From the IMG/VR virus record IMGVR_UViG_2671180547_000005: a stretch of DNA of 39,501 nt. One strand, written 5' to 3'. The translations under genes and the position numbers were made by a program. The notes beneath the pieces were generated by a model. The model saw nothing but the letters and a program-made list of their open reading frames with translations, was not told the origin of the DNA and searched no databases. Each line of letters begins with the position of its first letter. The stretch's first letter is position 1. The stretch comes from a virus (Duplodnaviria > Heunggongvirae > Uroviricota > Caudoviricetes). Positions 71 to 39,501 of this stretch are shown piece by piece.

Positions 71-362
71 TAGACTCGCCACCCCAAGAAATATTAATGG
101 GGTTCCCTTTGACGGGACGCAGGACATAAACATCACTTCTGGTATAACACAGCAGGATGCGGATTCCCGATATATCCAGGATATCAGGCTGGGAGCAGAG
201 AACAGGCAGGTAATGTACGGTGGGGCATATTACTCTGCGTACGGTAATGTTATGGCAGGCCTGCAGATTGACAGTAAAGTTGATGCTTCAAACGATTTTA
301 TAGCATTCAGACCCCTGCAAAAATTAGTCGGAGGTACATGGATTACGGTATCTCAGTTATAA
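3..362 (+). CDS. Tail fibre protein, variable C-terminal segment (5' partial; constant part off-window)
   Basis: Open frame from position 3 to TAA at 360..362; the first ~23 aa (GLRETVNRAANALPSDGTAVAAN) are shared with the inverted alternative segment, then diverge. Confidence 0.7.
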   Translation, partial: GLRETVNRAANALPSDGTAVAANRLATPRNINGVPFDGTQDINITSGITQQDADSRYIQDIRLGAENRQVMYGGAYYSAYGNVMAGLQIDSKVDASNDFIAFRPLQKLVGGTWITVSQL

Positions 363-413
363 ATAGTCAGTAAATAATATATTTTAAAACAGATTTATTT
401 CCAGGAGGATTTT

Positions 414-935
414 ATGGAACTAAAAAATATAACCCGTTATTATCCTGAAAATATGCCATATGGTAATAATGTTCAGTATTTCCAGAGTGAAGATGGTAAG
501 GATTTCTACGAATCCCTGCCATTATTCACCAAAAAATATAAACTTTGCATAACACCTGACAGCGGCGTTATCTGCTCAATATCACAGGACGCCTCGGCGC
601 TGTATCCTGCGGGGTTTTCTGTGGTTGAGGTCGATGAACTCCCTGAAGGCACGGATATTTCAGGAAACTGGAAGTTTGATAATGGCATAATCTCCCGTAT
701 TCCGGTTAACTACGCAAGAAAACTGGAAGCAATGCGCCAGTCATATCTTAATCAGGCATATGAAAAAATTAATGACTGGAGAACGGAGCTACAACTGGGC
801 ACCATCAGCGATGAAGACAGAGCAGCACTTACCCAATGGATGGCATACATCAGTCAGGTGAAGAAAATGGAACTACCCGCCATTAAAACAGAAGCTGAAT
901 TTAACGCCATTAAATGGCCTGAGCAGCCACAGTAA
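414..935 (+). CDS. Tail fibre assembly chaperone (Tfa / Mu U-like)
   Basis: 173 aa directly downstream of the fibre segment; C-terminus has the W-x-x-Y ... I-x-WP pattern typical of Tfa proteins. Confidence 0.7.
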   Translation: MELKNITRYYPENMPYGNNVQYFQSEDGKDFYESLPLFTKKYKLCITPDSGVICSISQDASALYPAGFSVVEVDELPEGTDISGNWKFDNGIISRIPVNYARKLEAMRQSYLNQAYEKINDWRTELQLGTISDEDRAALTQWMAYISQVKKMELPAIKTEAEFNAIKWPEQPQ

Positions 936-940
936 TAAAG

Positions 941-960
941 AAGGCCGGAAGGCCTTCTGA
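941..960. terminator. Hairpin between convergent tfa and alternative fibre segment
   Basis: Perfect 8-bp stem AGAAGGCC / GGCCTTCT with a 4-nt loop, AU-rich flanks, between two convergent stop codons. Confidence 0.4.
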
Positions 961-966
961 ATATCA

Positions 967-1319
967 TTATATACTTGCAGCCGTCACCCATGCTCCATTT
1001 AACAGATACTGCAACGGCCGGTAATACACGCCGCCGACGTTATCTGCCGTATTCTTACCGACATCCTGTACTTTAATTCCGGTAAGAACATTGCCGCCCC
1101 CCAGATTCAGATCCCAGCTTTCCCATGTTCCGGGCATATGTGCGGTCACCGACCCCAGTCTTATGGCGGTTACTGTTCCTGATGAGATAGTGATATCCTG
1201 CGTCCCGTCAAAGGGAACACCATTAATTGTGTGGGCATTTGCCAGCCTGTTCGCGGCAACGGCGGTGCCGTCCGATGGCAGGGCATTCGCCGCCCTGTTT
1301 ACCGTTTCCCGTAAACCGA
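967..1319 (-). CDS. Alternative tail fibre C-terminal segment (silent here; fused to the constant part after inversion)
   Basis: Minus-strand frame is open from the stop at 1351..1353 down to TAA at 967..969; begins with the same ~23 aa as the plus-strand segment and ends with a different ~95 aa tail. Confidence 0.6.
1250..1319. repeat. Right inverted-repeat copy of the invertible segment
   Basis: Reverse complement matches window 1..70 (69/70). Confidence 0.75.
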
Positions 1320-1331
1320 GGTTTTCAGGAA
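1306..1331. promoter_or_regulatory. gix/hix-like 26-bp recombination site (right copy)
   Basis: TTCCCGTAAACC-GA-GGTTTTCAGGAA: near-palindromic 12-2-12 layout, close to the Mu gix sequence as I recall it, immediately upstream of the invertase gene. Confidence 0.65.
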
Positions 1332-1396
1332 AGCCAGGATTAACTCTGTTTTATTCCTCATGCGACAATTCCGGCTTTTTATAATAAGGAAATCGT

Positions 1397-1969
1397 ATGC
1401 TGATTGGGTATATCAGGGTGTCAACAAATGACCAGAATACGGCGCTACAAAGAAATGCGCTGGAATGTGCAGGATGTGAGCTGTTTTTCGAAGACAGAAT
1501 AAGCGGTAAGACAAGGGAGCGTCCCGGACTTAAACGCGCATTAAAGCGACTCCGGCCAGGGGATACCCTGCTGGTCTGGAAACTGGATCGCCTTGGACGC
1601 AGTATGCAGCACCTTGTCCTTTTAACAGAAGAACTCCGGCAACGCGGCGTTAACTTCCGCAGCATTACGGACAATATTGATACATCCACTCCCATGGGAC
1701 GTTTCTTTTTCCATATAATGGGCGCGCTGGCGGAAATGGAGCGGGAACTCATTATTGAACGTACACGCGCGGGTCTTGCTGCTGCCCGTGCTCAGGGGCG
1801 TCATGGCGGCAGACCTCAGAAACTGACAGAGAAAGAGCGGGAGCAAATCGCCCGTTTGCTGGCTAATGGCGAGTCCCGTAAACAAATCGCACTGATATTT
1901 GATATTGGCCTTTCCACCCTTTATCGTTATTTTCCTGCCTCACCAGCTCCGTCACCAAAAGTACCGTGA
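1397..1969 (+). CDS. gin: Serine DNA invertase, Gin/Hin/Cin/Pin family
   Basis: 190 aa; N-terminal MLIGYIRVSTNDQ with catalytic Ser, resolvase core, C-terminal HTH; adjacent to the gix-like site. Symbol given by analogy to Mu. Confidence 0.9.
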   Translation: MLIGYIRVSTNDQNTALQRNALECAGCELFFEDRISGKTRERPGLKRALKRLRPGDTLLVWKLDRLGRSMQHLVLLTEELRQRGVNFRSITDNIDTSTPMGRFFFHIMGALAEMERELIIERTRAGLAAARAQGRHGGRPQKLTEKEREQIARLLANGESRKQIALIFDIGLSTLYRYFPASPAPSPKVP

Positions 1970-2054
1970 CGCTTTTTTGAATTTCCGCAAAACACATATT
2001 TTTCAGCGGTCGCTATTCTGACTCTGTTTAATTCAGAAACAGGCAGAAAAGACG

Positions 2055-4109
2055 ATGTCAGACTCCAAGTGGAAAATGCTCTCCGCCATGCCCGGAGAGT
2101 TTTCAGTCAAGGTTGCCGGTGGCACGGTGGCATTTATTGAAAGCCCTTTCCGCCCTTCGGGTAATAAAGGGGGGATCACCTTCGCAGACTGCGTGATCCG
2201 CTTCAGCACGAAAGAGCCATTATGGGTAATGCCGGTATCCGGTAATCCCAGTGCAGAAATCACCAGTTCAGGCGTGACTGGCATCATTCCAATCACATCT
2301 GACGTGGCCGGAACGCTCACGCCCTCCGACTGGAATGCACCGGATAACGCCGGGCCTTCCGGTAGCACGAATGGCAGCAGTTCAGAGCCGGAATATTACT
2401 TTGTTGTCATTCTCGCGGGTCAGTCAAATGGCATGGCCTACGGCGAGGGGCTGCCGTTACCGGATTCGTTTGACCGCCCGGACCCACGCATTAAGCAACT
2501 GGCACGCCGCAGTACGGTAACGCCCAACGGTACGTCGTGTACATACAACGACATCATTCCGGCAGACCACTGCCTGCATGATGTTCAGGATATGAGCGGG
2601 ATAAACCACCCGAAAGCTGATCTGGCAAAAGGCCAGTACGGGACTGTCGGTCAGGGGTTGCATATTGCCAAAAAACTGCTTCCCTATATCCCACAGAATG
2701 CCGGGATACTTCTGGTGCCCTGTTGTCGTGGCGGGTCAGCATTCACCACTGGAGCCGACGGCTCATTCAGTGAGGCCAGCGGTGCTTCCGCTGATTCTTC
2801 ACGCTGGGGGGCCGGTAAACCTCTGTATCAGGACCTGGTAAGCCGCACCAAAGTCGCGCTGGCGAAAAACCCGAAAAACAAACTTCTGGCTGTGGTCTGG
2901 ATGCAGGGAGAGGCAGACCTTGCCTCAGGAAGCCAGCAGCATAATAGTTTATTCACGGCCATGGTTCAGCAGTTCAGAACTGACCTGGCTCCGCTTGCTG
3001 CGCAGTGCGTGAGTGGAAATGCCACCACGGTGCCGTGGATTTGCGGTGATACCACGTATTACTGGAAAAACGCTGGCACCGATAAATATGAGGCAGTATA
3101 CGGTGGCTACAAAGGCAAGGAAGCACAGAAAATTTTCTTTGTACCGTTCCTGACGGATGAGAATGGACAGAGCACGCCAACGAATGCTCCGGCGGAAGAC
3201 CCGGATATTGTGGCTGTCGGGTATTACGGTGCAGCATCCCGAACCCAGGGCAGTTTTGTTTCGACACAGCGTGACAGCCATTTCAGCTCATGGGCACGCA
3301 GGGGCGTCATTTCAGACCGTCTGGCCTCAGCTATTATGCTCCATGCAGGGCGCACGGCTGAACTGATGCGTGGGCAGACCGTGACACCACCGGATGAGAA
3401 GCCGTCACCTGATACACCATCAAAACCGTCCACGCCACCCGCAGACACCACGACGATGAGTACGCTATTTGCTTACCGGGCATCTGAGTCTGAAGGACGG
3501 TTGACACCACAGGGTTGGGCTGCCGGAGGTGGCAAGGCTCAAATCGTGGATGATGCCGGAGCCAGCGGGGGTAAGGCAATGAAACTGACCAAGGAAACAG
3601 GAAGAGCCCCCTGGTACCTTGAGCATGATGCTGGTAATGGTGCGGACCTGCTGGGTAAAGGTGGTCTTGTCAGTTGTCGTTTTAAACTCGATGGCGCGCT
3701 TACGGCTAATCAGTACGCACTGGCGCTGTACTGGCCGGTTTCTGCCCTGCCGCAAGGGGTTACTCTGGAAGGAAATGCCGGTCATAACCTGCTGGCATCG
3801 TTCTACGTACAGAGCGATGCCACAGACCTTAACGTGATGTATCACAAAGGAAACACGGCGCAGAACACGAAGCTGGGGTCATTCGGCGCATTTAATAACG
3901 AATGGCATACGCTGGGCTTCCGTTTTGCCGGTAACAACAGTATTGAGGTGACGCCGGTCATTGATGGTAAGGACGGGACACCATTCATGCTGTCGCAGTC
4001 TCCGGTCGGCACGTTTACGGCAGACAAGTTGCGCGTGACCGATATCACTAAAAATGCGACTTACCCGGTACTGATTGACAGTATCGTGGTGGAAGTGAAT
4101 AACGCGTAA
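2055..4109 (+). CDS. NanS-p-like sialate O-acetylesterase (SASA/SGNH domain) with Pro/Thr linker and C-terminal lectin-like domain
   Basis: 684 aa; VVILAGQSNGMAYGEG matches the GQSN motif of the sialate O-acetylesterase family; size and modular layout resemble prophage NanS-p proteins. Confidence 0.6.
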   Translation: MSDSKWKMLSAMPGEFSVKVAGGTVAFIESPFRPSGNKGGITFADCVIRFSTKEPLWVMPVSGNPSAEITSSGVTGIIPITSDVAGTLTPSDWNAPDNAGPSGSTNGSSSEPEYYFVVILAGQSNGMAYGEGLPLPDSFDRPDPRIKQLARRSTVTPNGTSCTYNDIIPADHCLHDVQDMSGINHPKADLAKGQYGTVGQGLHIAKKLLPYIPQNAGILLVPCCRGGSAFTTGADGSFSEASGASADSSRWGAGKPLYQDLVSRTKVALAKNPKNKLLAVVWMQGEADLASGSQQHNSLFTAMVQQFRTDLAPLAAQCVSGNATTVPWICGDTTYYWKNAGTDKYEAVYGGYKGKEAQKIFFVPFLTDENGQSTPTNAPAEDPDIVAVGYYGAASRTQGSFVSTQRDSHFSSWARRGVISDRLASAIMLHAGRTAELMRGQTVTPPDEKPSPDTPSKPSTPPADTTTMSTLFAYRASESEGRLTPQGWAAGGGKAQIVDDAGASGGKAMKLTKETGRAPWYLEHDAGNGADLLGKGGLVSCRFKLDGALTANQYALALYWPVSALPQGVTLEGNAGHNLLASFYVQSDATDLNVMYHKGNTAQNTKLGSFGAFNNEWHTLGFRFAGNNSIEVTPVIDGKDGTPFMLSQSPVGTFTADKLRVTDITKNATYPVLIDSIVVEVNNA

Positions 4110-4110
4110 G

Positions 4111-4146
4111 CAGGATAAAAAAATGCCGCCGGTAAGGGAAAACAAG
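4111..4146 (-). terminator. Intrinsic terminator oriented for leftward transcription
   Basis: 10-bp stem TGCCGCCGGT / ACCGGCGGCA; the 7-nt T-run follows the hairpin only on the minus strand. Confidence 0.5.
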
Positions 4147-4253
4147 AAACCGGCGGCAAAAAGATCGTTATATCCAAAGCAAAAAATGCAGTGCACCTTT
4201 TTACCTAACAGATATTACCGGTGTCAACACCATGTCAATAATTGGGAGGGATA

Positions 4254-4436
4254 ATGACATTTTTACAGCTTATTTTATTGTATTTCTGCACGGCAGTATG
4301 TGCGTTATATCTGGTGAGTGGTGGTTATAAGGCCATCAGAAATTATGTTCGCCGCAAAATTGAGGACGCAGCAGCTGAAAAACTCAGTAAAACAGCGCAG
4401 GTAACTCCGCTCCCAAAAGACCCGACCCAGCCCTGA
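4254..4436 (+). CDS. Small hydrophobic (probably membrane) protein, unknown function
   Basis: ATG at 4254 preceded by GGGAGGG; 60 aa with a hydrophobic N-terminus followed by a charged tail. Confidence 0.45.
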   Translation: MTFLQLILLYFCTAVCALYLVSGGYKAIRNYVRRKIEDAAAEKLSKTAQVTPLPKDPTQP

Positions 4437-4471
4437 TTGCAGGGCTTTATTCCCGCATAAGGAGGATATAC

Positions 4472-4726
4472 ATGCCAGAAATTAAAGGCACCGTCACTGA
4501 AGACCTGGTAAAACAGGCACTGTATTCCGGTGAAGTAAATAAGTTGCTGAAAGCGCAGGTCCGCAAGGATTTTGAGGCACAAATCGACACTTACGTTGAT
4601 GAAGTGCTGGCAAAACTTATTGGGCCAGCAGTTGCGGCCAGTGATGCTGATAATGAGCCGAAAACCGACGCGCAGCCAGAGCAACCAGACCCGGCTCAGC
4701 CCGGAACTGACAGTACCATGATGTAA
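4472..4726 (+). CDS. Small acidic protein, unknown function
   Basis: Strong RBS AAGGAGG 6 nt upstream; 84 aa with an acidic Pro-rich C-terminus. Confidence 0.45.
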   Translation: MPEIKGTVTEDLVKQALYSGEVNKLLKAQVRKDFEAQIDTYVDEVLAKLIGPAVAASDADNEPKTDAQPEQPDPAQPGTDSTMM

Positions 4727-4783
4727 CAATACAAACCGGTGGTGTCCTCTGCCGGTTTGACACTAATGAAAACATCTTTGCCG

Positions 4784-4812
4784 CTATCCAGCCATATGTA
4801 ATCGCTGGATAG
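4784..4812 (+). terminator. Hairpin after the small two-gene cassette
   Basis: Perfect 9-bp inverted repeat CTATCCAGC / GCTGGATAG with an 11-nt loop, followed by a U-rich tract; a second hairpin lies at about 4732..4758. Confidence 0.4.
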
Positions 4813-4893
4813 TATTTCGTATTCAGAAATATAGCTGCTTATGGAGCAGTCAATCCTGCTTCCCCATCCGGGCAGGCAAATGAACCGGTATCA

Positions 4894-5187
4894 TTAGTCC
4901 GATTCACGCTTTTGTAGAATCGTTCCCAGAATGCTATACAGCTCATTAGCCTGTTGCTCCATCATTGAGACGGAGGCTATACGGTGCAAAGTGATTTCAG
5001 GAGGTGGCACACCTCCATCTTCTTGCTGTGGAGGAAAAACATAAGATTTAATAAAAAAGTTGAAGCATATGAACTCTCCCGCACTCGAACTGTATTTGCA
5101 GGCATCTGAATAATCGGAAAAATAATCATTATAGATTTCCGCATTTTCAATCATTTTTCGATTTCTCGTCGTTACATGATTGTCCAT
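4894..5187 (-). CDS. Hypothetical protein in an AT-rich segment (moron candidate)
   Basis: 97 aa; ATG preceded by AAGAGG; region is visibly AT-rich compared with the rest of the phage. Confidence 0.4.
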   Translation of the reverse strand: MDNHVTTRNRKMIENAEIYNDYFSDYSDACKYSSSAGEFICFNFFIKSYVFPPQQEDGGVPPPEITLHRIASVSMMEQQANELYSILGTILQKRESD

Positions 5188-5376
5188 AGCAGCCTCTTAC
5201 GCTGGCAATTAACCAATTGACTTCTATAAATTAGTTGATTTGTTTGCTTTGCGGTATTCAAATGTACAATCATTCAGCACTTATGCGTTACAGCACCGTT
5301 TAAAATTAGTGATCAAACTCATAAATTTTCGCTAATGACATTTCGTGTTATTTGTTGTATCAATTAAATAAATCAA

Positions 5377-5400
5377 ATCGATCGTTTTTGTCGATCGATT
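5377..5400. promoter_or_regulatory. GATC pair in a palindromic context upstream of com-mom
   Basis: GATC at 5380..5383 and 5393..5396 within TCGATCG ... TCGATCGA, about 45 bp upstream of the com start; Mu mom is controlled through GATC methylation. Confidence 0.4.
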
Positions 5401-5443
5401 GAGTGATAAAGATATCAACAACAAAGCAGGAGGTTATGCGGCC

Positions 5444-5644
5444 ATGTATCGAAACATACGGTGCCGACATTGTAACAAGCTACTGGCACGAGCCAGCTTC
5501 AGTTATCTGGAAGTTAAATGTCCGCGCTGTAAAACCCTCAATCAAATCACATCTCAGAGCGCCACAGAGCACCCCACATACACAAGGAAATCCTGTCGTG
5601 GGGAACAGAAAGCAAGTTACATCCCGTATCATCAGCACGCCTGA
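5444..5644 (+). CDS. com: Com-like zinc-finger translational activator of mom
   Basis: 66 aa from the internal ATG with an upstream AGGAGG; CxxC ... CPRC zinc-finger pattern as in Mu Com. Confidence 0.7.
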
Positions 5645-6335
5645 ACTTATTCACTATAACGACAATATCGTCGGTTATGGCTCCCGTGAGTTACGGGTTG
5701 AGACAATAAGTTGCTGGCTGGCCCGGCTGGTCGTCGTCAATAAACATTACAGCCATCGTTTCGTAAATAATTCCTACCTTCATCTGGGCATATTTTCAGA
5801 ACGGGAGCTGGTTGGCGTAATGCAATGGGGTTATGCCCTTAATCCAAACAATGGTGCACGCGTCGTAACTGGCACGCAGAACCGCGAATATATGGAGCTT
5901 AACCGGTTATGGCTGCATGACTGTATGCCGAGAAACTCCGAATCAAGGGCAATCAGTTACGCGCTCAAACTAATCAGACAACTTTATCCGCAGGTGCAGT
6001 GGGTTCAGTCGTTTGCAGATGAGCGTTGTGGCTGTCTTGGTGTCGTGTACCAGGCAAGCAATTTTGATTATGTAGGCAGTCATGAAACAACATTCTATGA
6101 ACTTGATGGCGAGTGGTATCACGAGATTTGCAAGAATGCAATCAAACGAGGAGGACAGCGAGGTGAACATCTGCGGGCTAATATCGACAGAGCCAGTGTT
6201 CATAAATTCCGTCAGTTTCGTTACATCCGGTTTCTGGACAAGAGAGCCAGAAAACGCCTTAACACAAAGCTATTCAAAGTCCAGCCTTACCCAAAACCAC
6301 AAACAGTTAAAACTGGTTTGAAAGAGAGTGAATGA
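5598..6335 (+). CDS. mom: Mom-like DNA modification protein
   Basis: Overlaps the 3' end of com in another frame; GTG at 5598 preceded by AAGGAAA; about 245 aa; last gene before the phage end, as in Mu. Start codon inferred. Confidence 0.55.
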
Positions 6336-6379
6336 ACGCTTAAAAACTCATTCTAAAACTCAAAAGAAAAGCGCCGATT

Positions 6380-6463
6380 TAGTATCAAATAAGTTGCGTA
6401 TCGGCGTTTTTCAGCGGTATCAAATGAAATGCAAATCGGTATCAAAAAAATCGCCGCGCTATA
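6380..6463. repeat. Phage right-end (attR-like) cluster of three closely spaced transposase-site repeats
   Basis: AGTATCAAATAAG (6381), CGGTATCAAATGA (6416), CGGTATCAAAAAAA (6437); inferred terminus about 6456..6463 (...GCGCTATA). Confidence 0.6.
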
Positions 6464-6465
6464 GA

Positions 6466-6504
6466 CAGCCTAAGCGGCTGCTGACCTCCCTGACCATGCT
6501 GTAA
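6466..6504 (+). pseudogene. Detached 3' end of IS66 tnpB (QPKRLLTSLTML-stop)
   Basis: Reads in frame as the continuation of the tnpB that ends at 38853 on the other phage flank (…LLEGIDWR + QPKRLLTSLTML). Confidence 0.5.
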
Positions 6505-6548
6505 ATCTCTTTATCCTGGTTGTCACAGAATAAGCCCGGTAAAATACG

Positions 6549-6853
6549 NNNNNNNNNNNNNNNNNNNNNNNNNNNNNNNNNNNNNNNNNNNNNNNNNNNN
6601 NNNNNNNNNNNNNNNNNNNNNNNNNNNNNNNNNNNNNNNNNNNNNNNNNNNNNNNNNNNNNNNNNNNNNNNNNNNNNNNNNNNNNNNNNNNNNNNNNNNN
6701 NNNNNNNNNNNNNNNNNNNNNNNNNNNNNNNNNNNNNNNNNNNNNNNNNNNNNNNNNNNNNNNNNNNNNNNNNNNNNNNNNNNNNNNNNNNNNNNNNNNN
6801 NNNNNNNNNNNNNNNNNNNNNNNNNNNNNNNNNNNNNNNNNNNNNNNNNNNNN
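6549..6853. other. Assembly gap (305 N)
   Basis: Run of n. Confidence 1.
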
Positions 6854-7221
6854 ACGTCAGCGGGACCAAGACTGTTTTTTGTGGCAAGCGTCCCCAGACC
6901 AAGATAACCACGGGCCAGACGCTGGGCCTCCGCACCGGCATCAGCAATTTCTTTCAGGTTATTTTTCCGGGAAAAGGCATTCGCAGCGATAATGGCTTTA
7001 ATGGACAGCGTAAGCTGGTTTAACTGCGCCTTATCCGGCTGAATACTGGCTTCAGCCAGAATATTCAGCAGTTCGGCCTGGAGAATATTCAGCCAGTCCT
7101 GACCAATCCAGCTGATACCTTTTTGTCCGTCACCTTCGGTAAACCAGGTGGTGGTATTACTCTGCGCCGGTGCCAGCGCAGGCATATTCGCCACGCCGGA
7201 ATTATTATCAACATGAAACAT
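6854..7221 (-). CDS. Tail fibre protein, N-terminal constant part (truncated by the gap)
   Basis: Minus ORF starting at 7221 runs into the N-gap; sits after the gp48-like gene in Mu order. Confidence 0.6.
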
Positions 7222-7781
7222 TAAATAGTCTCCTCTTCATGGCTGTTTGCATAAACGTAAATAAACGTCTGCCATGCAGGCTTATAACGGTTCAGAATAC
7301 ATTCCAGCGCACCGCCTTCATAAATACGCAGCGGCGTGAGAATATCATCCAGCACATTCATATTCCGGTAGCCGGTTTCACTGTTAATCGTGACAATACT
7401 GACCCACTGCGAATCCGGTGAGGGCTGAATGTCAATCTGATAACCAAACTCCGCCGCAAACCGGATATAAAATTCACGGTTCAGCGAGGGCTTCATCCGG
7501 TATTTATTTCCGGCATAACGCTGTCGCTCCGTGAGGGTGGCTCCGGCCATATCACACTCGGGAAGCCCGAGATAACGCTCCCAGTCTTCCAGCAGCAGGC
7601 GCGACGTGTCAGGGAAACGCTCGGCAAGCAGCTGTTTACCCGTCCAGGATACACGCGCTGTCGAATGACTGAGGCCCAGACATAATGATGCCAGTACGGA
7701 TGACGGACGCTTGTCCCATGCCAGCCCGTCAGGCAGTAACTGCAACAGGGCGCGCTGATGCGGGGTCAGGGTTACAGCCAT
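7221..7781 (-). CDS. Mu gp48-like tail protein
   Basis: 186 aa between the baseplate J-like gene and the fibre gene; start overlaps the upstream stop. Confidence 0.6.
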   Translation of the reverse strand: MAVTLTPHQRALLQLLPDGLAWDKRPSSVLASLCLGLSHSTARVSWTGKQLLAERFPDTSRLLLEDWERYLGLPECDMAGATLTERQRYAGNKYRMKPSLNREFYIRFAAEFGYQIDIQPSPDSQWVSIVTINSETGYRNMNVLDDILTPLRIYEGGALECILNRYKPAWQTFIYVYANSHEEETI

Positions 7782-8854
7782 GTGATTTCTCCTACCGTCA
7801 GCAGCTCACTGTCTCCCGCCTGAACTGACGTCAGCGGACTGCGCACTTCAAAATCCTCCAGATTTTTCACCCCTGCCACCGCCCGCCAGAAAGACGACGG
7901 CAGAACCAGACCGCCGGGCCGGGATTCGTTATACAACAGGTCGGTCAGCGCCTGTTTTACGGCCGCCTGATTCTCCGGTGTTTTCGGGATGATCCTGATG
8001 CTGAAGGGCACCGGCTTATTGGTCAGTTTAAACACGGTCACCGTCGGCCCCAGAGGCTGTCCGACAGGCTGGCCGGTCGCCGGATCATCATGACTGCGGA
8101 TATAATCCGCCACCCGCTGAACATCACCGTCACCGGGGAAAATATCCGGGTTATTATCCTGAACAAACGTTACCCCCACGCTGCCCGCCTGCGGCCATTC
8201 CGGGCGGCACCATGCCCGCGTCACGCCCGGCACTTCACGCGCCCAGCGTTCAAAATCATACTGCGTGCCGCCGGACGGTGGATTCTGCACCCGGAAAACC
8301 AGACGGGAAAGCAGCTCCGGCACGGTTTCCACATCCGCACCACCGGTGATCCCCGTTCCGGTCACCGTGGCCGTCTGGTTGATCCCCGCCTGCGGTGTGA
8401 TAAATGTCAGTTTTGTCCCTGCCGGGGCATTCCCCGCACGACCGGCACTTTCGGCTTCCACACTGACATTCAGCGTACCGGCCTTACCGGTCAGGGAGGT
8501 GGTGATACGGTAAACCACGCCATCACTTCGCTGGAGAAGCACACCTTCCTTGATCCCCGCATCCGTGGTCAGCATCAGCTGAACCGGCCCGTCCCCCCGA
8601 GAGGCAGGCTTACGCATGACGCCCCAGAATGCACAGTGTTTCAGCAGTTCGGCTTCATCGGCTTCGGTCGGGATGATCTGACGCGCAATCCAGGCCAGAT
8701 GCTCATGCTCCTGAGCAGATAACCCTGCCTGAGCGTAAGCAATGGCATTCAGGGTGGTTTCATTCACACCCGGCTGCGAGCCGGGCAGGCGCTGGCTGAT
8801 ATCCTGCTGTGTCTGCGTGATTAACTGTGCCAGCGGTAAAGGCTGATAAGGCAT
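7772..8854 (-). CDS. Baseplate J-like protein (Mu gp47)
   Basis: 360 aa; position and size. Confidence 0.7.
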   Translation of the reverse strand: MPYQPLPLAQLITQTQQDISQRLPGSQPGVNETTLNAIAYAQAGLSAQEHEHLAWIARQIIPTEADEAELLKHCAFWGVMRKPASRGDGPVQLMLTTDAGIKEGVLLQRSDGVVYRITTSLTGKAGTLNVSVEAESAGRAGNAPAGTKLTFITPQAGINQTATVTGTGITGGADVETVPELLSRLVFRVQNPPSGGTQYDFERWAREVPGVTRAWCRPEWPQAGSVGVTFVQDNNPDIFPGDGDVQRVADYIRSHDDPATGQPVGQPLGPTVTVFKLTNKPVPFSIRIIPKTPENQAAVKQALTDLLYNESRPGGLVLPSSFWRAVAGVKNLEDFEVRSPLTSVQAGDSELLTVGEITWL

Positions 8855-35564: not shown

Positions 35565-37652
35565 TCAGGCCAGCGGATCACTTTCTTTTAATTTCGCTTC
35601 GAGCAGTTGCAATCCCCGCTGGAAATTACGCTCGTATTCTTCATCAGGTTCATCGTCAGCGACCGGTTGCTGAACGGTCACCGTATTACCCACAGGGCGG
35701 TATATGTTTTCCAGCCAGGGCTCCTGCGGCTTGTGCTCCAGCACGTTGACAACCTCATCCTCGGCATCACGGATTTTTTCCTCTGCGCGTTTACGCATGC
35801 CTTTAAGGCGCTGCTGCTGTTTGTAGTATTCCGCGCTGACAGGGAAGGCTTCGCGTTTATTGCCGTCCCATACCGCCTCGCAAATCACGCTGCCATCCGG
35901 GCGGCGCACGGTAATTCGTTCGGCATCATGAATGTCATAGCTGATAAGTACCTTACGGCCATGCTCGTCACGCAGCTCGGGCGCGTAGTAAATATTATTC
36001 AGCCAGCGTATTTCACAGCGTCTTACAGGGCGCTCCACCATCGGCCGGAACATATCCCGCAGTTCAACATCGGACAGCCATTCAATTTCCGTGTCCTCTT
36101 CCGCCAGGCGTTTTTTTCTGAACTCCGCCGGGCTGTAATGTTTACCGTTCGGCTTCATGGGTAATTCATCGTGCGGCCGGTTGTTGTACCACTCAACACC
36201 GTCACGAATGGCATCAATCAGTTCAGACCAGGACGGTAAATCACGCATCGCTGACTGCTGCCGGGCGTTCAGCCGTTTGCCCTGTTGCAGGGCACTGAAT
36301 GCCGAGCGTAAATCGCGGTTGGTTTTACGTAACGTCTCGCGATCTGCTCCTTTCCCGAAATAGGTGCGGTATTTACGGGCTATGCGCATCGGTAATGTGC
36401 GGTTAAGCCGTTCGATAATGCCCCGTCCCTGCGGATTACCGGCAATCCCTGTCGGGTGATTAATCCCCAGTCGTGGCAGTATCCCCACAATCTCCTTATC
36501 CAGGACGTCGGCGGTTTCCCCGGAGCCATTATCCGAGTAATACAGAAACGGTTTGCCATGATGGCGAATACCGTGCTGTATGGCACCGGCTACGGCGAAA
36601 ACATTTTCAGCCAGGTCAAGGCTCCAGCCCACCACAAAGCGCGTGCCACCGTCGATAACAAAGGTCACTTCCGGTGCGAATGGCCGCCCGTGAACCGGGT
36701 GCGCGCATTTCAGCTTCATGCCGTGACCGTCACCAATCCAGACATAATTCACCGGCATTCTGGACCAGTCGCGGCGCGTGAATCCCTCAAGCTGACGGTA
36801 TTCACTGCCAGTTACCCGGCCTTTTTGTTTCACCACTTCCGGCAGTTTCTTCATTGCGCGGCGAATGGTGTCATAAGAGGGCATGATATCGAGCATATAA
36901 GGCTCATCAGCGTGCCGGTGCTGCCATTCAGCAACAAAATCCTCGTAAGCCTCGGTCATTGGTCGGCCGTTTGACTGGCGATACTGCGCCAGAAATTCGG
37001 GCAGCCAGTTAATATCTTCGGCTTTTATTTCCTGGCGTTTACCCGGTGCCAGTAAAAGCAGGCGTTCAGCGGCGTTCTGTGCCTTGTTAAAGGCCGCAAT
37101 CCAGCGTTTCAGCGTGATTTCACTCAACGCGCGGCTGTTTCCCTTTTTGGCGTTCGCCGTCTCAACCATTGCCACAATGCGCTCGTCCAGTTGTGATCGT
37201 GCCAGGCTGTTAACGAGGAACCGGATAGCTTTAGCGCAGCTGAAACCGGGTTGTTGCGTGAATTTCAGCACCTCACTGACGATCGCAATGCGTGCGTCTG
37301 CCACCTGGCGCTGGTTTTCAGTCAGGGCATTGAGGCGTTCGACCATCAGTTGTGGTGATCCGCGATATGCCTCCACCGCATCAACCACGGCAGACGAGCG
37401 TCTGGCCTTTGTCACCACCGGAGCCGGTGATTCATCGGCTTTTTGCGTCATCAGTTGCAGGGCATAACGTTCGCGTAATGCCTGCTGTGTCACTTCAGGT
37501 AAACAGTCAATGCTGTATTCAAAACCTTTAGCGCCTTTCTTGCGGCGTCTGCTGGTTTCGCTGGTTGCATACTTCCTGATTGAATAGCGAACGCCTTGCT
37601 CCGTTCCCGGCATCCCCGGTAATCCAACCAGTTCTTTAACTGAAGCAAACAT
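35565..37652 (-). CDS. Mu-type DDE transposase (MuA-like)
   Basis: 695 aa; follows ner and precedes B as in Mu. Confidence 0.85.
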   Translation of the reverse strand: MFASVKELVGLPGMPGTEQGVRYSIRKYATSETSRRRKKGAKGFEYSIDCLPEVTQQALRERYALQLMTQKADESPAPVVTKARRSSAVVDAVEAYRGSPQLMVERLNALTENQRQVADARIAIVSEVLKFTQQPGFSCAKAIRFLVNSLARSQLDERIVAMVETANAKKGNSRALSEITLKRWIAAFNKAQNAAERLLLLAPGKRQEIKAEDINWLPEFLAQYRQSNGRPMTEAYEDFVAEWQHRHADEPYMLDIMPSYDTIRRAMKKLPEVVKQKGRVTGSEYRQLEGFTRRDWSRMPVNYVWIGDGHGMKLKCAHPVHGRPFAPEVTFVIDGGTRFVVGWSLDLAENVFAVAGAIQHGIRHHGKPFLYYSDNGSGETADVLDKEIVGILPRLGINHPTGIAGNPQGRGIIERLNRTLPMRIARKYRTYFGKGADRETLRKTNRDLRSAFSALQQGKRLNARQQSAMRDLPSWSELIDAIRDGVEWYNNRPHDELPMKPNGKHYSPAEFRKKRLAEEDTEIEWLSDVELRDMFRPMVERPVRRCEIRWLNNIYYAPELRDEHGRKVLISYDIHDAERITVRRPDGSVICEAVWDGNKREAFPVSAEYYKQQQRLKGMRKRAEEKIRDAEDEVVNVLEHKPQEPWLENIYRPVGNTVTVQQPVADDEPDEEYERNFQRGLQLLEAKLKESDPLA

Positions 37653-38689: not shown

Positions 38690-38862
38690 AGTATCAAATG
38701 AGTTGCCGATTTTATAATAAATGACTAATTATTGCACAATCGGTATCAAATAGACCTTATCCGCACATCTAGCCATCACCTGTTTTATTTCAGTATCTTA
38801 CAGGTGATTTCACCTCCTTTCACTAAACCCCTTGTCGGTATCAAATGATTCACCTGGTTATA
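38690..38862. repeat. Phage left-end (attL-like) cluster of three spaced transposase-site repeats
   Basis: CAGTATCAAATGAG (38690), CGGTATCAAATAG (38742), CGGTATCAAATGATTCA (38835); inferred terminus at 38862. Confidence 0.6.
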
Positions 38863-39173
38863 TGTCGCCAGTCGATACCTTCCAGCAGCATCGCCAGCTG
38901 CGCCTGTGTAAGGAACACTTTGCCATCACGGGCTGACGGCCAGGCGAAGCGCCCACGCTCCAGCCGTTTGGTCAGGAGGCACAGTCCGTCACTGGTGGAC
39001 CACAGCAGTTTAACCTGACTGCCGCTGCGGCCCCGGAAAATGAAAACATGGCCGGACATGGGATCGTCTTTCAGCGCCGTCTGTACTTTCGCAGCCAGGC
39101 CGTTGAAGCCATTTCTCATATCGGTGATACCGGCAACCAGCCAAATTTTGATCCCGGAAGGTAACGGGATCAT
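38853..39173 (-). CDS. tnpB: IS66-family TnpB (orf2), 3' end interrupted at the phage junction
   Basis: 107 aa with the characteristic IWLVAGITDMR ... LLEGIDWR; the stop codon coincides with the first bases of the phage end. Confidence 0.75.
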
Positions 39174-39400
39174 CGCTTCAGTTCCTGTATCAGCAGAGTC
39201 AGGAGCTTTTCGCTGACATTGCCATTGAAGCGGAGCGTCCCGTGCCGGAACGTTACCTCACAGCTGATACTGAGGGTTTTCGGGTCCTCTGCGAGCGATT
39301 CTGGCTGTTCGGCAGCTGCATCGAGAGTCACAGGAAGTAGCTGGGGGCTCTCTGAAGAAGGTAATAGCTGAGGTGTACTGGCAATAGCGGACACTACCAT
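39170..39400 (-). CDS. Probable IS66-family orf1 (TnpA) C-terminal part
   Basis: Stop overlaps the tnpB start in an ATGA arrangement; frame stays open to the window edge. Confidence 0.4.
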   Translation of the reverse strand: MVVSAIASTPQLLPSSESPQLLPVTLDAAAEQPESLAEDPKTLSISCEVTFRHGTLRFNGNVSEKLLTLLIQELKR

Positions 39401-39411
39401 TTGTTCTTTTT

Positions 39412-39501
39412 TTAAGCAGCCATCTGATGATATTTTTCCCTGAAGGCTGCCGGGGAGATATTCCCCAGACGAGAGTGACGACGCTGACGATTGTAGAAAA
39501 T
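39412..39501 (-). CDS. IS3-family transposase (orfB), 3' end only
   Basis: Minus frame reads IFYNRQRRHSRLGNISPAAFREKYHQMAA-stop, the conserved C-terminal signature of IS3-family transposases. Confidence 0.55.
   Translation of the reverse strand: MFYNRQRRHSRLGNISPAAFREKYHQMAA

What the first reader, a model, noticed from the sequence alone, without database searches (positions are those of the whole stretch)
2055..4109. NanS-p-like sialate O-acetylesterase carried as cargo between the invertase and com-mom
The 684-aa protein has the GQSN-type SGNH/SASA esterase motif, a Pro/Thr-rich linker and a C-terminal lectin-like domain. Such esterases are known as cargo of lambdoid prophages in enterohaemorrhagic E. 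coli; finding one in a Mu-like right-end region is not part of the Mu backbone. It could act on host glycans (mucin sialic acids) or on a surface receptor modification.
Basis: partly seen in the sequence, partly recalled or inferred. Interest (0 to 1): 0.6.

Follow-up and report, generated by a model that had tools for sequence, protein, structure and literature searches.

The report
Mu-like prophage sialic-acid esterase, new anchor
The gene is a NanS-p-type sialic-acid O-acetylesterase that is a fixed feature of a family of Mu-like E. coli prophages, and it is ordinary except that an unrelated, undescribed N-terminal domain replaces the one that anchors the lambdoid version to the capsid.

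Summary
ORF 2055..4109 (+) encodes 684 aa with a GQSN motif, a Pro/Thr/Ser linker and a C-terminal lectin-like domain. It lies between gin (1397-1969) and com/mom (5444-6335) of a Mu-like transposable prophage.

Residues 110-428 are 58% identical to E. coli NanS (PDB 3PT5). Residues 469-683 are 69% identical to the phi24B NanS-p C-terminal domain (6YP6). All NanS active-site blocks are present (Ser124, His409). NanS itself has no catalytic Asp, so that part of the refutation test does not apply.

Phage Mu has only 95 bp between gin and com. Here 3.4 kb is inserted: esterase, DUF1378 and DUF826 (the trio found in Stx phages), plus one orphan ORF. This is not sporadic cargo. About 233 of 5426 complete E. 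coli genomes carry it, roughly as many as carry this com-mom lineage.

They form an unrelated all-beta domain found only in Mu-like prophage esterases of E. coli, Shigella and Salmonella. Its role, possibly a virion anchor, is inferred and untested.

Verdict: new variant of a known kind, moderate interest.

The parts
1397..1969 (+). gin-type serine DNA invertase, the upstream neighbour
   Evidence: Pfam Resolvase 1.6e-51 and HTH_7 4.9e-15.
1970..2054 (+). gin-esterase intergenic region of 85 bp. It has blocks conserved between the two E. coli lineages (TGAATT..CGCAAAA and GTTTAATTCAGAAACAGG). No terminator was found and no consensus promoter beyond chance.
   Evidence: Alignment A4; promoter and terminator scan.
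2055..4109 (+). NanS-p-like sialate O-acetylesterase ORF, 684 aa
   Evidence: The identical protein is WP_001284083.1 in RefSeq.
2055..2303 (+). Mu-type N-terminal domain (aa 1-83). It is all-beta, is not DUF1737 and matches no known family.
   Evidence: No Pfam or PHROG hit. AF2 places strands at aa 7-79, with 10-residue block-mean pLDDT 70-90. hhalign against DUF1737 gives probability 0.3%. HMMER over 1.84 billion representative proteins finds only esterase relatives. pN 0.24 against pS 0.77.
2304..2390 (+). Linker 1 (aa 84-112), Ser/Gly/Pro-rich and predicted disordered. It ends at the recombination breakpoint.
   Evidence: pLDDT below 50 for aa 84-110. Homology to the lambdoid allele starts at nt 2385.
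2391..3359 (+). SGNH/SASA esterase domain (aa 113-435)
   Evidence: 58% identity to NanS 3PT5 over 315 aa. dN/dS is 0.09.
2424..2426 (+). Codon of the nucleophile Ser124, in block I GQSNG (aa 122-126)
   Evidence: The matching NanS motif is 17-GQSNA-21.
3279..3281 (+). Codon of the general base His409, in block V R-D-SHFS (aa 406-411). Blocks II (RGGSAF, aa 225-230) and III (MQGEAD, aa 283-288) are also present.
   Evidence: Ser124 invariant and His409 nearly invariant, >=90%, in the 25-sequence alignment.
3360..3458 (+). Linker 2 (aa 436-468), Pro/Thr/Ser-rich and evolving almost neutrally
   Evidence: 59% P/T/S over aa 437-470. dN/dS is 0.72 against the O157 type.
3459..4106 (+). C-terminal lectin-like jelly-roll domain (DUF6645)
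   Evidence: 69% identity to 6YP6 over 215 aa. Pfam DUF6645 at 7e-68. The published fold is described in PMC10462455 and PMC8065619.
2385..4133 (+). Esterase plus C-terminal-domain cassette. It is 91.5% identical in DNA to the nanS-p of a lambdoid prophage (E. coli strain 317). Homology stops at both domain and gene borders.
   Evidence: blastn; annotation of L005; protein alignment A1.
4125..4157 (.). GC-rich hairpin (GCCGCCGG, 17-nt loop, CCGGCGGC) just after the stop codon. It is preceded by A7, so the T-run lies on the minus strand.
   Evidence: Read from the sequence. Function was not tested.
4254..4436 (+). DUF1378 small membrane protein
   Evidence: Pfam 1.2e-31; RefSeq WP_000143468.1.
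4472..4726 (+). DUF826 protein
   Evidence: Pfam 6.4e-16; phrog_311.
4894..5187 (-). Orphan ORF in a low-GC island (GC 0.37-0.41). It matches no family.
   Evidence: RefSeq calls 4894-5154 (WP_000571916.1).
5444..5644 (+). com
   Evidence: Pfam Zn_ribbon_Com 1.3e-12; RefSeq coordinates taken from L001.
5598..6335 (+). mom
   Evidence: Pfam Mom 9.8e-78; 75% identical to Mu Mom.
6336..6463 (+). Mu-type right end. Matches to four prophage copies that sit in different host sites all stop at 6463/6464.
   Evidence: blastn.

Best explanation
ORF 2055-4109 encodes a working member of the prophage NanS-p group of sialate O-acetylesterases. The central SGNH/SASA domain (aa 113-435) removes O-acetyl groups from sialic acids such as Neu5,9Ac2. 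It does so with a Ser124-His409 pair and the NanS-type oxyanion blocks. [quoted passage not shown]

The gene sits with DUF1378 and DUF826 in a 3.4-kb insertion between gin and com/mom. The same three genes lie between stx/Q and the holin in lambdoid Stx phages. The insertion is a fixed feature of one lineage of E. coli/Shigella Mu-like transposable prophages, probably the Sp18-like lineage. The esterase plus C-terminal-domain cassette has been exchanged by recombination with lambdoid alleles.

The first 83 residues stay with the Mu-like backbone. They replace the DUF1737 capsid-binding domain of lambdoid and P2-like NanS-p.

Shown here: homology, motif conservation, purifying selection, gene context and distribution. 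Inferred from published work on homologues: the enzyme is made without a signal peptide, reaches its substrate when the phage lyses the cell, and frees deacetylated sialic acid from mucins that E. coli can then use. Inferred by analogy only: the Mu-type N-domain tethers or oligomerises the enzyme on the Mu-like particle.
For: Family assignment: PDB hits 3PT5 at 1.8e-117 and 6YP6 at 7e-98, with identities of 58% and 69%. Pfam SASA and DUF6645 and phrog_143 at 1.7e-296.

Active site: the four NanS blocks are present at aa 122-126, 225-230, 283-288 and 406-411. They match the 3PT5 motifs listed in PMC10792757. In 25 homologues Ser124 is invariant and His409 is nearly invariant, at least 90%.

Selection: dN/dS is 0.09 for the esterase and 0.17 for the C-terminal domain. 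The N-domain has pN 0.24 against pS 0.77.

Context: gin, Com and Mom, plus MuA, MuB, portal, gpT, sheath and baseplate. Mu itself has only 95 bp between gin and com.

Cassette exchange: DNA is 91.5% identical to a lambdoid allele only over nt 2385-4133.

Fixation in the lineage: the N-domain DNA occurs in 28 plus 205 complete E. coli genomes, against 226 genomes with this com-mom-attR. All 34 IMG/VR loci with flanking sequence keep the same gene order.

N-domain tied to phage type: lambdoid and P2-like copies have DUF1737 and the Mu-like copies do not. A 30%-identical Salmonella relative also sits just downstream of the invertase of a Mu-like prophage.

Published activity of homologues: NanS-p enzymes of EDL933 and O104:H4 deacetylate Neu5,9Ac2 and mucin glycans and allow growth on them (review PMC8065619). 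The phi24B homologue is a capsid-decorating virion protein anchored by DUF1737 (bioRxiv 10.64898/2026.04.10.717836).
Against: No enzymatic, expression or virion data exist for any Mu-type copy. No promoter was identified, and the promoter and terminator scan is no better than shuffled sequence. It is therefore unknown whether the gene is made in the lysogen, for example by read-through from gin, or only late.

The full-length AlphaFold model failed (mean pLDDT 41). Active-site geometry rests on sequence identity to 3PT5.

The genome counts for the esterase and for com-mom were compared as totals. They were not intersected genome by genome.
Confidence: 0.82

Rival explanations
1. The enzyme serves the phage rather than the lysogen. 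Displayed on the Mu-like virion through its N-domain, it strips O-acetyl groups from bacterial surface glycans (O-antigen, or O-acetylated K1 polysialic acid) or from mucus. This would expose the receptor or let the particle move through mucus, as receptor-destroying esterases do.
For: The phi24B homologue is an abundant virion protein attached by its N-terminal domain. The N-terminal domain co-varies with phage family, while the catalytic cassette moves freely between families. This is what a particle-specific adaptor would look like. In P2-like prophages the gene lies inside the late structural operon. A review raises the LPS de-O-acetylation idea (PMC8065619).
Against: The Mu-type copy has no virion evidence. 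The N-domain resembles no known capsid or tail protein. The gene lies outside the structural operons, next to gin and mom. The only substrates shown for the family are free and mucin-bound O-acetyl sialic acids.
Confidence: 0.3
2. The N-terminal 83 residues are not a functional domain. They would be a mis-called start or a leftover leader created when a lambdoid nanS-p recombined into the Mu-like phage, and the active product would be only esterase plus C-terminal domain.
For: The N-terminal region has no family hit and very few homologues. The recombination breakpoint lies exactly at its end.
Against: The first in-frame Met after the linker is M127, downstream of the nucleophile Ser124. The esterase therefore cannot be translated without the N-terminal region. 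The region is kept in three lineages at 60% and 30% identity, with pN well below pS. It is more conserved (95-100%) than the rest of the protein (82-100%) across 22 clusters. It also folds confidently as a beta domain, with 10-residue block-mean pLDDT 70-90.
Confidence: 0.04
3. The gene is decaying passenger DNA in defective prophages and has no current function.
For: Many carriers are deleted or rearranged prophages, for example JKHS016 and the two DLI.5a copies, and gin is frameshifted in DLI.5a.
Against: The ORF is intact and identical in many genomes, including degraded prophages. There is strong purifying selection on all three folded domains. Catalytic residues are conserved: Ser124 invariant and His409 at 90% or more. 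The gene is present in about 233 complete genomes.
Confidence: 0.04

Closest known systems
NanS-p of lambdoid Stx phages (933W L0105/z1466; phi24B vb_24B_21/gp84; PDB 6YP6 for the C-terminal domain)
   Same: It has the same SASA esterase domain and the same DUF6645 lectin-like C-terminal domain, up to 92-94% identical in protein to some lambdoid alleles. It has the same Pro/Thr linker and the same downstream DUF1378 and DUF826 genes. It is prophage-borne and has no signal peptide.
   Different: The N-terminal domain is not DUF1737. It is an unrelated domain of about 83 aa, all-beta in the model. The gene sits between gin and com/mom of a transposable Mu-like myovirus, not between Q/stx and the holin of a lambdoid phage.
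Chromosomal NanS (YjhS) of E. coli, PDB 3PT5
   Same: The catalytic domain is 58% identical over 315 aa and has the same four active-site blocks. It has the same Ser-His arrangement without a block-V Asp.
   Different: NanS is a single-domain protein of 326 aa encoded in the nanCMS operon (my own knowledge). The window protein adds an N-terminal domain, two linkers and a C-terminal lectin-like domain, and it is phage-encoded.
NanS-p-like gene of P2-like (P88-type) prophages, e.g. E. coli EC958 WP_000202148.1
   Same: It has three-part architecture with SASA and DUF6645 and lies in a contractile-tailed temperate phage.
   Different: The P2-like copy keeps DUF1737. It lies inside the late operon between the lysis genes and tail genes R/S. 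Its DNA is only about 71% identical to the window, over nt 2412-3338.
Phage Mu, D108 and SfMu right end (gin-com-mom)
   Same: The layout is the same: invertible tail-fibre segment, gin, com, mom, right end. Mom is 75% identical.
   Different: Mu has 95 bp between gin and com. The window has 3.4 kb carrying four extra ORFs.

Membership tests
NanS-p (prophage-borne sialate O-acetylesterase) | Central SASA/SGNH esterase domain homologous to NanS | tested here: met
   Pfam SASA 1.5e-13. 3PT5 at E 1.8e-117 with 58% identity.
NanS-p (prophage-borne sialate O-acetylesterase) | SGNH blocks I, II, III and V, with the nucleophile Ser and the base His as in NanS | tested here: met
   GQSNG at 122-126, RGGSAF at 225-230, MQGEAD at 283-288 and R-D-SHFS at 406-411. 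The NanS motifs are listed in PMC10792757. In 25 homologues Ser124 is invariant and His409 is at least 90% conserved.
NanS-p (prophage-borne sialate O-acetylesterase) | C-terminal lectin-like jelly-roll domain (DUF6645, as in 6YP6) | tested here: met
   Pfam DUF6645 7e-68. 6YP6 at E 7e-98 with 69% identity.
NanS-p (prophage-borne sialate O-acetylesterase) | N-terminal DUF1737 domain, the capsid anchor in phi24B | tested here: not met
   There is no DUF1737 hit at E up to 1, whereas lambdoid and P2-like copies hit it. hhalign probability is 0.3%. The predicted fold is all-beta, whereas DUF1737 is a helix plus three strands.
NanS-p (prophage-borne sialate O-acetylesterase) | Encoded in a prophage and followed by DUF1378 and DUF826 genes | tested here: met
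   The literature description is in PMC10462455.
NanS-p (prophage-borne sialate O-acetylesterase) | Position in the lambdoid late region, between Q/stx and holin S | tested here: not met
   Here it lies between gin and com/mom of a Mu-like prophage. The lambdoid layout is seen in L005.
NanS-p (prophage-borne sialate O-acetylesterase) | Esterase activity on Neu5,9Ac2 and on mucin O-acetyl sialic acids | not testable with these tools
   This needs a biochemical assay. Activity of the homologues is summarised in PMC8065619.
NanS-p (prophage-borne sialate O-acetylesterase) | Virion association and post-assembly self-cleavage, as reported for phi24B gp84 | not testable with these tools
   This needs virion proteomics. 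Linker 1 contains SSSEP here and SSSP in the O157 type, which loosely resembles the SSP motif proposed in the preprint. That is a resemblance, not a test.
Classical SGNH hydrolase (Ser-His-Asp triad) | Block V DxxH with a catalytic Asp | tested here: not met
   Block V here is RDSH. The Asp is one residue from the His and is not conserved: A in the O157 type and S in NanS. NanS itself lacks the Asp, so this does not argue against activity.
Mu-like transposable phage | MuA and MuB transposition proteins, Mu portal, gpT head, contractile tail, invertible tail-fibre segment with gin, and com/mom at the right end | tested here: met
   Pfam hits. Copies lie at unrelated host sites (ypdB, bglJ, an RHS element, ISEc8).

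The most novel reading that the evidence does not exclude
NanS-p may be a modular virion-display enzyme rather than a metabolic gene. On this reading, one esterase-plus-lectin cassette is shuffled by recombination among lambdoid, P2-like and Mu-like phages. Each phage family supplies its own N-terminal adaptor that fixes the enzyme to its particle: DUF1737 for lambdoid and P2-like phages, and the new 83-aa beta domain for Mu-like phages. The Mu-type domain would then be a previously unrecognised capsid- or tail-binding module, and Mu-like particles of E. coli would carry a glycan esterase on their surface.
Probability: 0.3. Interest if true: 0.65.

Novelty: new variant of a known kind. Interest (0 to 1): 0.42.

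Why it matters
NanS-p has been studied almost only as a companion of Shiga toxin genes in lambdoid phages. It has been read as a gene that helps EHEC feed on mucin sialic acids.

This locus shows that the same enzyme cassette is a constant part of a second, unrelated phage family. That family is found in several hundred sequenced E. coli, including O157:H7, O111 and O103, as well as non-STEC strains. Counts of nanS-p copies per strain, and knock-out studies, should include it.

The lineage-specific N-terminal domain now has added interest because the lambdoid N-terminal domain has been reported to be a capsid anchor. It gives a direct, cheap test of whether these esterases are generally displayed on virions. 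It also offers a candidate new particle-binding module.

The shared cassette is also a stretch of homology between unrelated prophages. At least one Mu-like/lambdoid chimera joined through it was seen.

Tried and rejected
Structure work:
- The full-length AlphaFold2 model from a 25-sequence alignment was unusable (mean pLDDT 41).
- The afdb50 library was not available.

Searches for more N-domain relatives:
- Word-indexed searches returned only fragments.
- HMMER over 1.84 billion representatives gave four hits. Three are fragments of Mu-type NanS-p-like esterases and one looks spurious.
- The scan of one genome per species found none.
- The phage collection holds the domain only inside two Stx-prophage records that contain an inserted Mu-like phage.

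Regulation and small ORFs:
- The promoter and terminator scan of 1300-6500 was no better than shuffled sequence, so expression timing remains open.
- I did not attempt a Mu C-activator site search because I could not recall the consensus reliably.
- PADLOC, NCBIfam, Pfam and PHROGs gave nothing for the orphan ORF at 4894-5187.

Literature:
- The primary papers on NanS structure (PMC3149194), NanS diversity (PMC5038012) and NanS-p mucin activity (PMC7106450) are not held. Those facts are cited through reviews.
- Searches found no paper that connects Mu-like phages with nanS or acetylesterase.

Ideas considered and rejected: a wrong start codon, and a decaying pseudogene (see the rival explanations).
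Full report
**1. The observation.** A single ORF runs from ATG 2055 to TAA 4107-4109 on the + strand and encodes 684 aa. GQSN lies at aa 122-125. The stretch at aa 437-470 is 59% Pro/Thr/Ser. Pfam finds SASA at aa 117-312 (E 1.5e-13) and DUF6645 at aa 533-650 (E 7e-68). PHROGs places the protein in phrog_143, of unknown function, at 1.7e-296.

**2. What the protein is.** A sequence search of the PDB gives two strong hits. E. coli NanS/YjhS (3PT5) matches aa 110-428 at E 1.8e-117. [quoted passage not shown] Counted from those alignments, identity is 58% over 315 residues and 69% over 215 residues.

A structural survey of SGNH hydrolases lists the 3PT5 active-site blocks as GQSNA, RGGSAF, MQGEFD and R-x-SHFS. 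It notes that NanS lacks the block-V Asp and uses a main-chain oxygen as the acid (PMC10792757). The window protein has GQSNG (122-126), RGGSAF (225-230), MQGEAD (283-288) and R-D-SHFS (406-411). In a 25-sequence alignment of homologues Ser124 is invariant and His409 is conserved in at least 90%.

The Ser and His pass. The Asp is not a feature of this family, and the residue at that position varies: D here, A in the O157-type copy and S in NanS.

**3. The surroundings.** Upstream lies a serine invertase (Resolvase plus HTH_7, 1397-1969) and a tail-fibre assembly gene (414-935). Downstream lie DUF1378 (4254-4436), DUF826 (4472-4726), an orphan minus-strand ORF in a low-GC island (4894-5187), com and mom. 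The rest of the window encodes MuA, MuB, a Mu-type portal, the gpT major head protein, tail sheath, tape measure and baseplate J. This is a Mu-like transposable prophage.

Matches to four other copies of the element, which sit in different host genes, all stop at window 6463/6464. That position marks the right end. In phage Mu itself gin ends at 35673 and com starts at 35768, a gap of 95 bp. The window has 3.4 kb in that gap. The "extra relative to Mu" part of the finding is therefore correct.

**4. Where the cassette came from.** In lambdoid Stx phages nanS-p lies between Q/stx and the holin, and DUF826 and DUF1378 genes lie between nanS-p and S (PMC10462455). I saw exactly that layout in a lambdoid prophage of E. 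coli strain 317: Q, tRNAs, esterase, DUF1378, DUF826, holin, lysozyme.

The window's DNA is 91.5% identical to that lambdoid gene, but only from nt 2385 to nt 4133. That span runs from the first residues of the esterase domain to 24 nt past the stop codon. The protein alignment shows the same sharp switch.

**5. How common it is.** Among 5426 complete E. coli genomes, the window-type N-terminal coding segment occurs in 28 at 80% coverage or more. The O157-type segment occurs in 205. The com-mom-right-end segment of this lineage is present at 80% coverage or more in 226 genomes. These totals were not intersected genome by genome. Their near equality still indicates that almost every prophage of this lineage carries the esterase.

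In 34 IMG/VR loci the N-terminal segment is always fused to the esterase. Wherever the flanking sequence is present and collinear, the order is tail-fibre assembly, gin (missing in nine loci), esterase, DUF1378, DUF826, mom. L011 and L016 depart from this order downstream of the esterase.

RefSeq already annotates the protein, as "DUF6645 domain-containing protein" or "sialate O-acetylesterase". I found no paper in the held library that links Mu-like phages with nanS or acetylesterase. A detailed study of Sakai prophage Sp18 does not mention the gene in the passages I retrieved.

Canonical NanS-p has three domains: DUF1737 (aa 3-53 in 933W), SASA and the C-terminal region (PMC10462455). The lambdoid copy (strain 317) and a P2-like copy (EC958, lying between the lysis genes and tail genes R/S) both hit DUF1737. 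The window protein and the O157 Mu-like copy do not.

A profile-profile comparison of the two N-terminal types gives a probability of 0.3%. AlphaFold2 models aa 7-79 as an all-beta domain with 10-residue block-mean pLDDT of 70-90, followed by a disordered linker at aa 84-110. DUF1737 in phi24B is one helix plus three strands.

The Mu-type domain is real and under constraint, for four reasons.
- No in-frame Met lies between it and the nucleophile Ser124, so it must be translated with the enzyme.
- It is 60% identical between the two E. coli lineages, with pN 0.24 against a saturated pS of 0.77.
- A 30%-identical version heads a partial esterase in Salmonella enterica, also immediately downstream of the invertase of a Mu-like prophage.
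- Across 22 protein clusters it is 95-100% identical while the rest of the protein ranges from 82% to 100%.

It is also very rare. HMMER over 1.84 billion representative proteins finds four hits. Three are fragments of these esterases and the fourth looks spurious. A scan of one genome per species finds none. The phage collection holds it only inside two Stx-prophage records that carry an inserted Mu-like phage.

**7. Mechanism.** The following are shown here: family membership by strong homology, an intact active site, purifying selection on all three folded domains (esterase dN/dS 0.09, C-terminal domain 0.17, and linker 2 near neutral at 0.72), and fixed residence in the Mu-like lineage.

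The following are taken from published work on homologues. NanS-p enzymes of EDL933 and O104:H4 remove O-acetyl groups from Neu5,9Ac2 and from mucin glycans and allow growth on them. The C-terminal domain is proposed to be a carbohydrate-binding module (PMC8065619; PMC10462455).

A 2026 preprint reports that phi24B gp84 is an abundant virion protein. Its DUF1737 domain sits as a hexamer in the central hexons of the capsid, and the enzyme is cleaved off after release. In the present data the N-terminal domain tracks the phage family while the catalytic cassette moves between families. The simplest reading is that the Mu-type domain plays the same adaptor role for the Mu-like particle.

This last step is inference by analogy. 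Fold searches gave only weak cupin-like matches and no phage structural protein. Some cupin-like small barrels are dimerisation modules, so a purely oligomerising role is equally open. When the gene is expressed is unknown. The 85-bp spacer after gin has conserved blocks but no recognisable promoter or terminator.

**8. Rival explanations.** I give the phage-serving, receptor- or mucus-modifying role about 0.3. It overlaps with the best explanation rather than excluding it. The wrong-start and decaying-pseudogene readings are contradicted by the data in section 6 and by the selection analysis.

**9. Verdict.** The enzyme belongs to a known, characterised family and is already annotated in hundreds of genomes, so the core finding is ordinary. 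Two things are not yet described, as far as the held literature shows. One is its fixed residence in a Mu-like prophage lineage. The other is the replacement of the DUF1737 capsid anchor by an unrelated, lineage-restricted domain. I rate it a new variant of a known kind, with interest about 0.4.

Noticed in passing
window 6464-6548, 6549-6853 and about 38855-39501: The prophage right end (6463) abuts 85 bp that are 100% identical to ISEc8/IS66, followed by a run of 305 N. Past the left-end repeats (CGGTATCAAAT motifs at about 38690-38850), the far end of the window reads as IS66-family transposase sequence by eye. This was not searched. Segment 1-6463 (G segment, gin, esterase, mom) is inverted relative to 6854-38850 (tail fibre back to the repressor). 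About 160 nt of the tail-fibre gene S are missing between window 6854 and window 1. In HH35 the S 5' end and the esterase lie in the normal collinear Mu order, and no complete E. coli genome shows this junction. It is probably two contigs, broken at the IS and at the invertible segment, that were joined in the wrong orientation. The N run prevents proof.
   Followed up: partly
L011 (IMGVR_UViG_2617270951_000022), 96-8233: This locus is a chimera. Mu-type gin and the Mu-type N-domain esterase are followed by lambdoid genes instead of DUF826, com and mom: a lambdoid-type DUF1378, P21-type holin S, DUF1327, lysozyme, Rz and terminase Nu1. The shared esterase cassette seems to serve as a recombination bridge between unrelated prophage families. 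L016 also departs from the usual order: it has a lambdoid-type DUF1378 (59%), no DUF826, and mom on the opposite strand.
   Followed up: partly
window 4894-5187 (-): An orphan ORF of 97 aa (RefSeq aa) lies in a low-GC island (0.37-0.41) between DUF826 and com. It is read against the flanking genes and has no hit in Pfam, PHROGs, NCBIfam or PADLOC. The O157-type prophage carries a different, frameshifted minus-strand ORF at the same place, and many IMG/VR loci lack it. It looks like a separately acquired, self-transcribed extra gene (moron).
   Followed up: partly
L015, L016, L017, L018, L020, L023, L026, L030, L031: In these nine loci no gin is detected upstream of the esterase. In eight of them the tail-fibre assembly gene ends about 305 nt upstream of the esterase; in L017 the locus has too little upstream sequence to tell. 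In the two loci I aligned (L018, L030) only the 3' end of gin remains. The esterase and its upstream spacer are kept, so these phages probably have a fixed tail-fibre orientation.
   Followed up: no
L001 (JKHS016), L002 and L003 (DLI.5a): These strains carry one to several internally deleted or scrambled copies of the same Mu-like prophage. The copies are inserted in unrelated genes (bglJ, ypdB, an island). The G segment is in opposite orientations in different copies, and gin is frameshifted in DLI.5a. The esterase ORF is intact in all of them.
   Followed up: no
L007 (E. coli EC958) 3770-5647; L006 (phage vB_EcoM-569R5): P2-like (Peduoviridae, P88-type) prophages of ST131 and related strains carry a DUF1737-SASA-DUF6645 esterase inside the late operon, between the lysis genes and tail genes R/S. 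NanS-p-type enzymes therefore occur in at least three temperate phage families of E. coli.
   Followed up: partly
window 4125-4157: A GC-rich hairpin lies just after the esterase stop codon. It is preceded by A7, so it reads as an intrinsic terminator only for leftward transcription. Homology to the lambdoid allele ends inside it, at nt 4133.
   Followed up: no
window 2364-2390 (aa 104-112) and L004: Linker 1 contains SSSEP here and SSSP in the O157 type. This loosely resembles the SSP-containing motif that the phi24B preprint proposes as a self-cleavage site between the anchor and the esterase.
   Followed up: no
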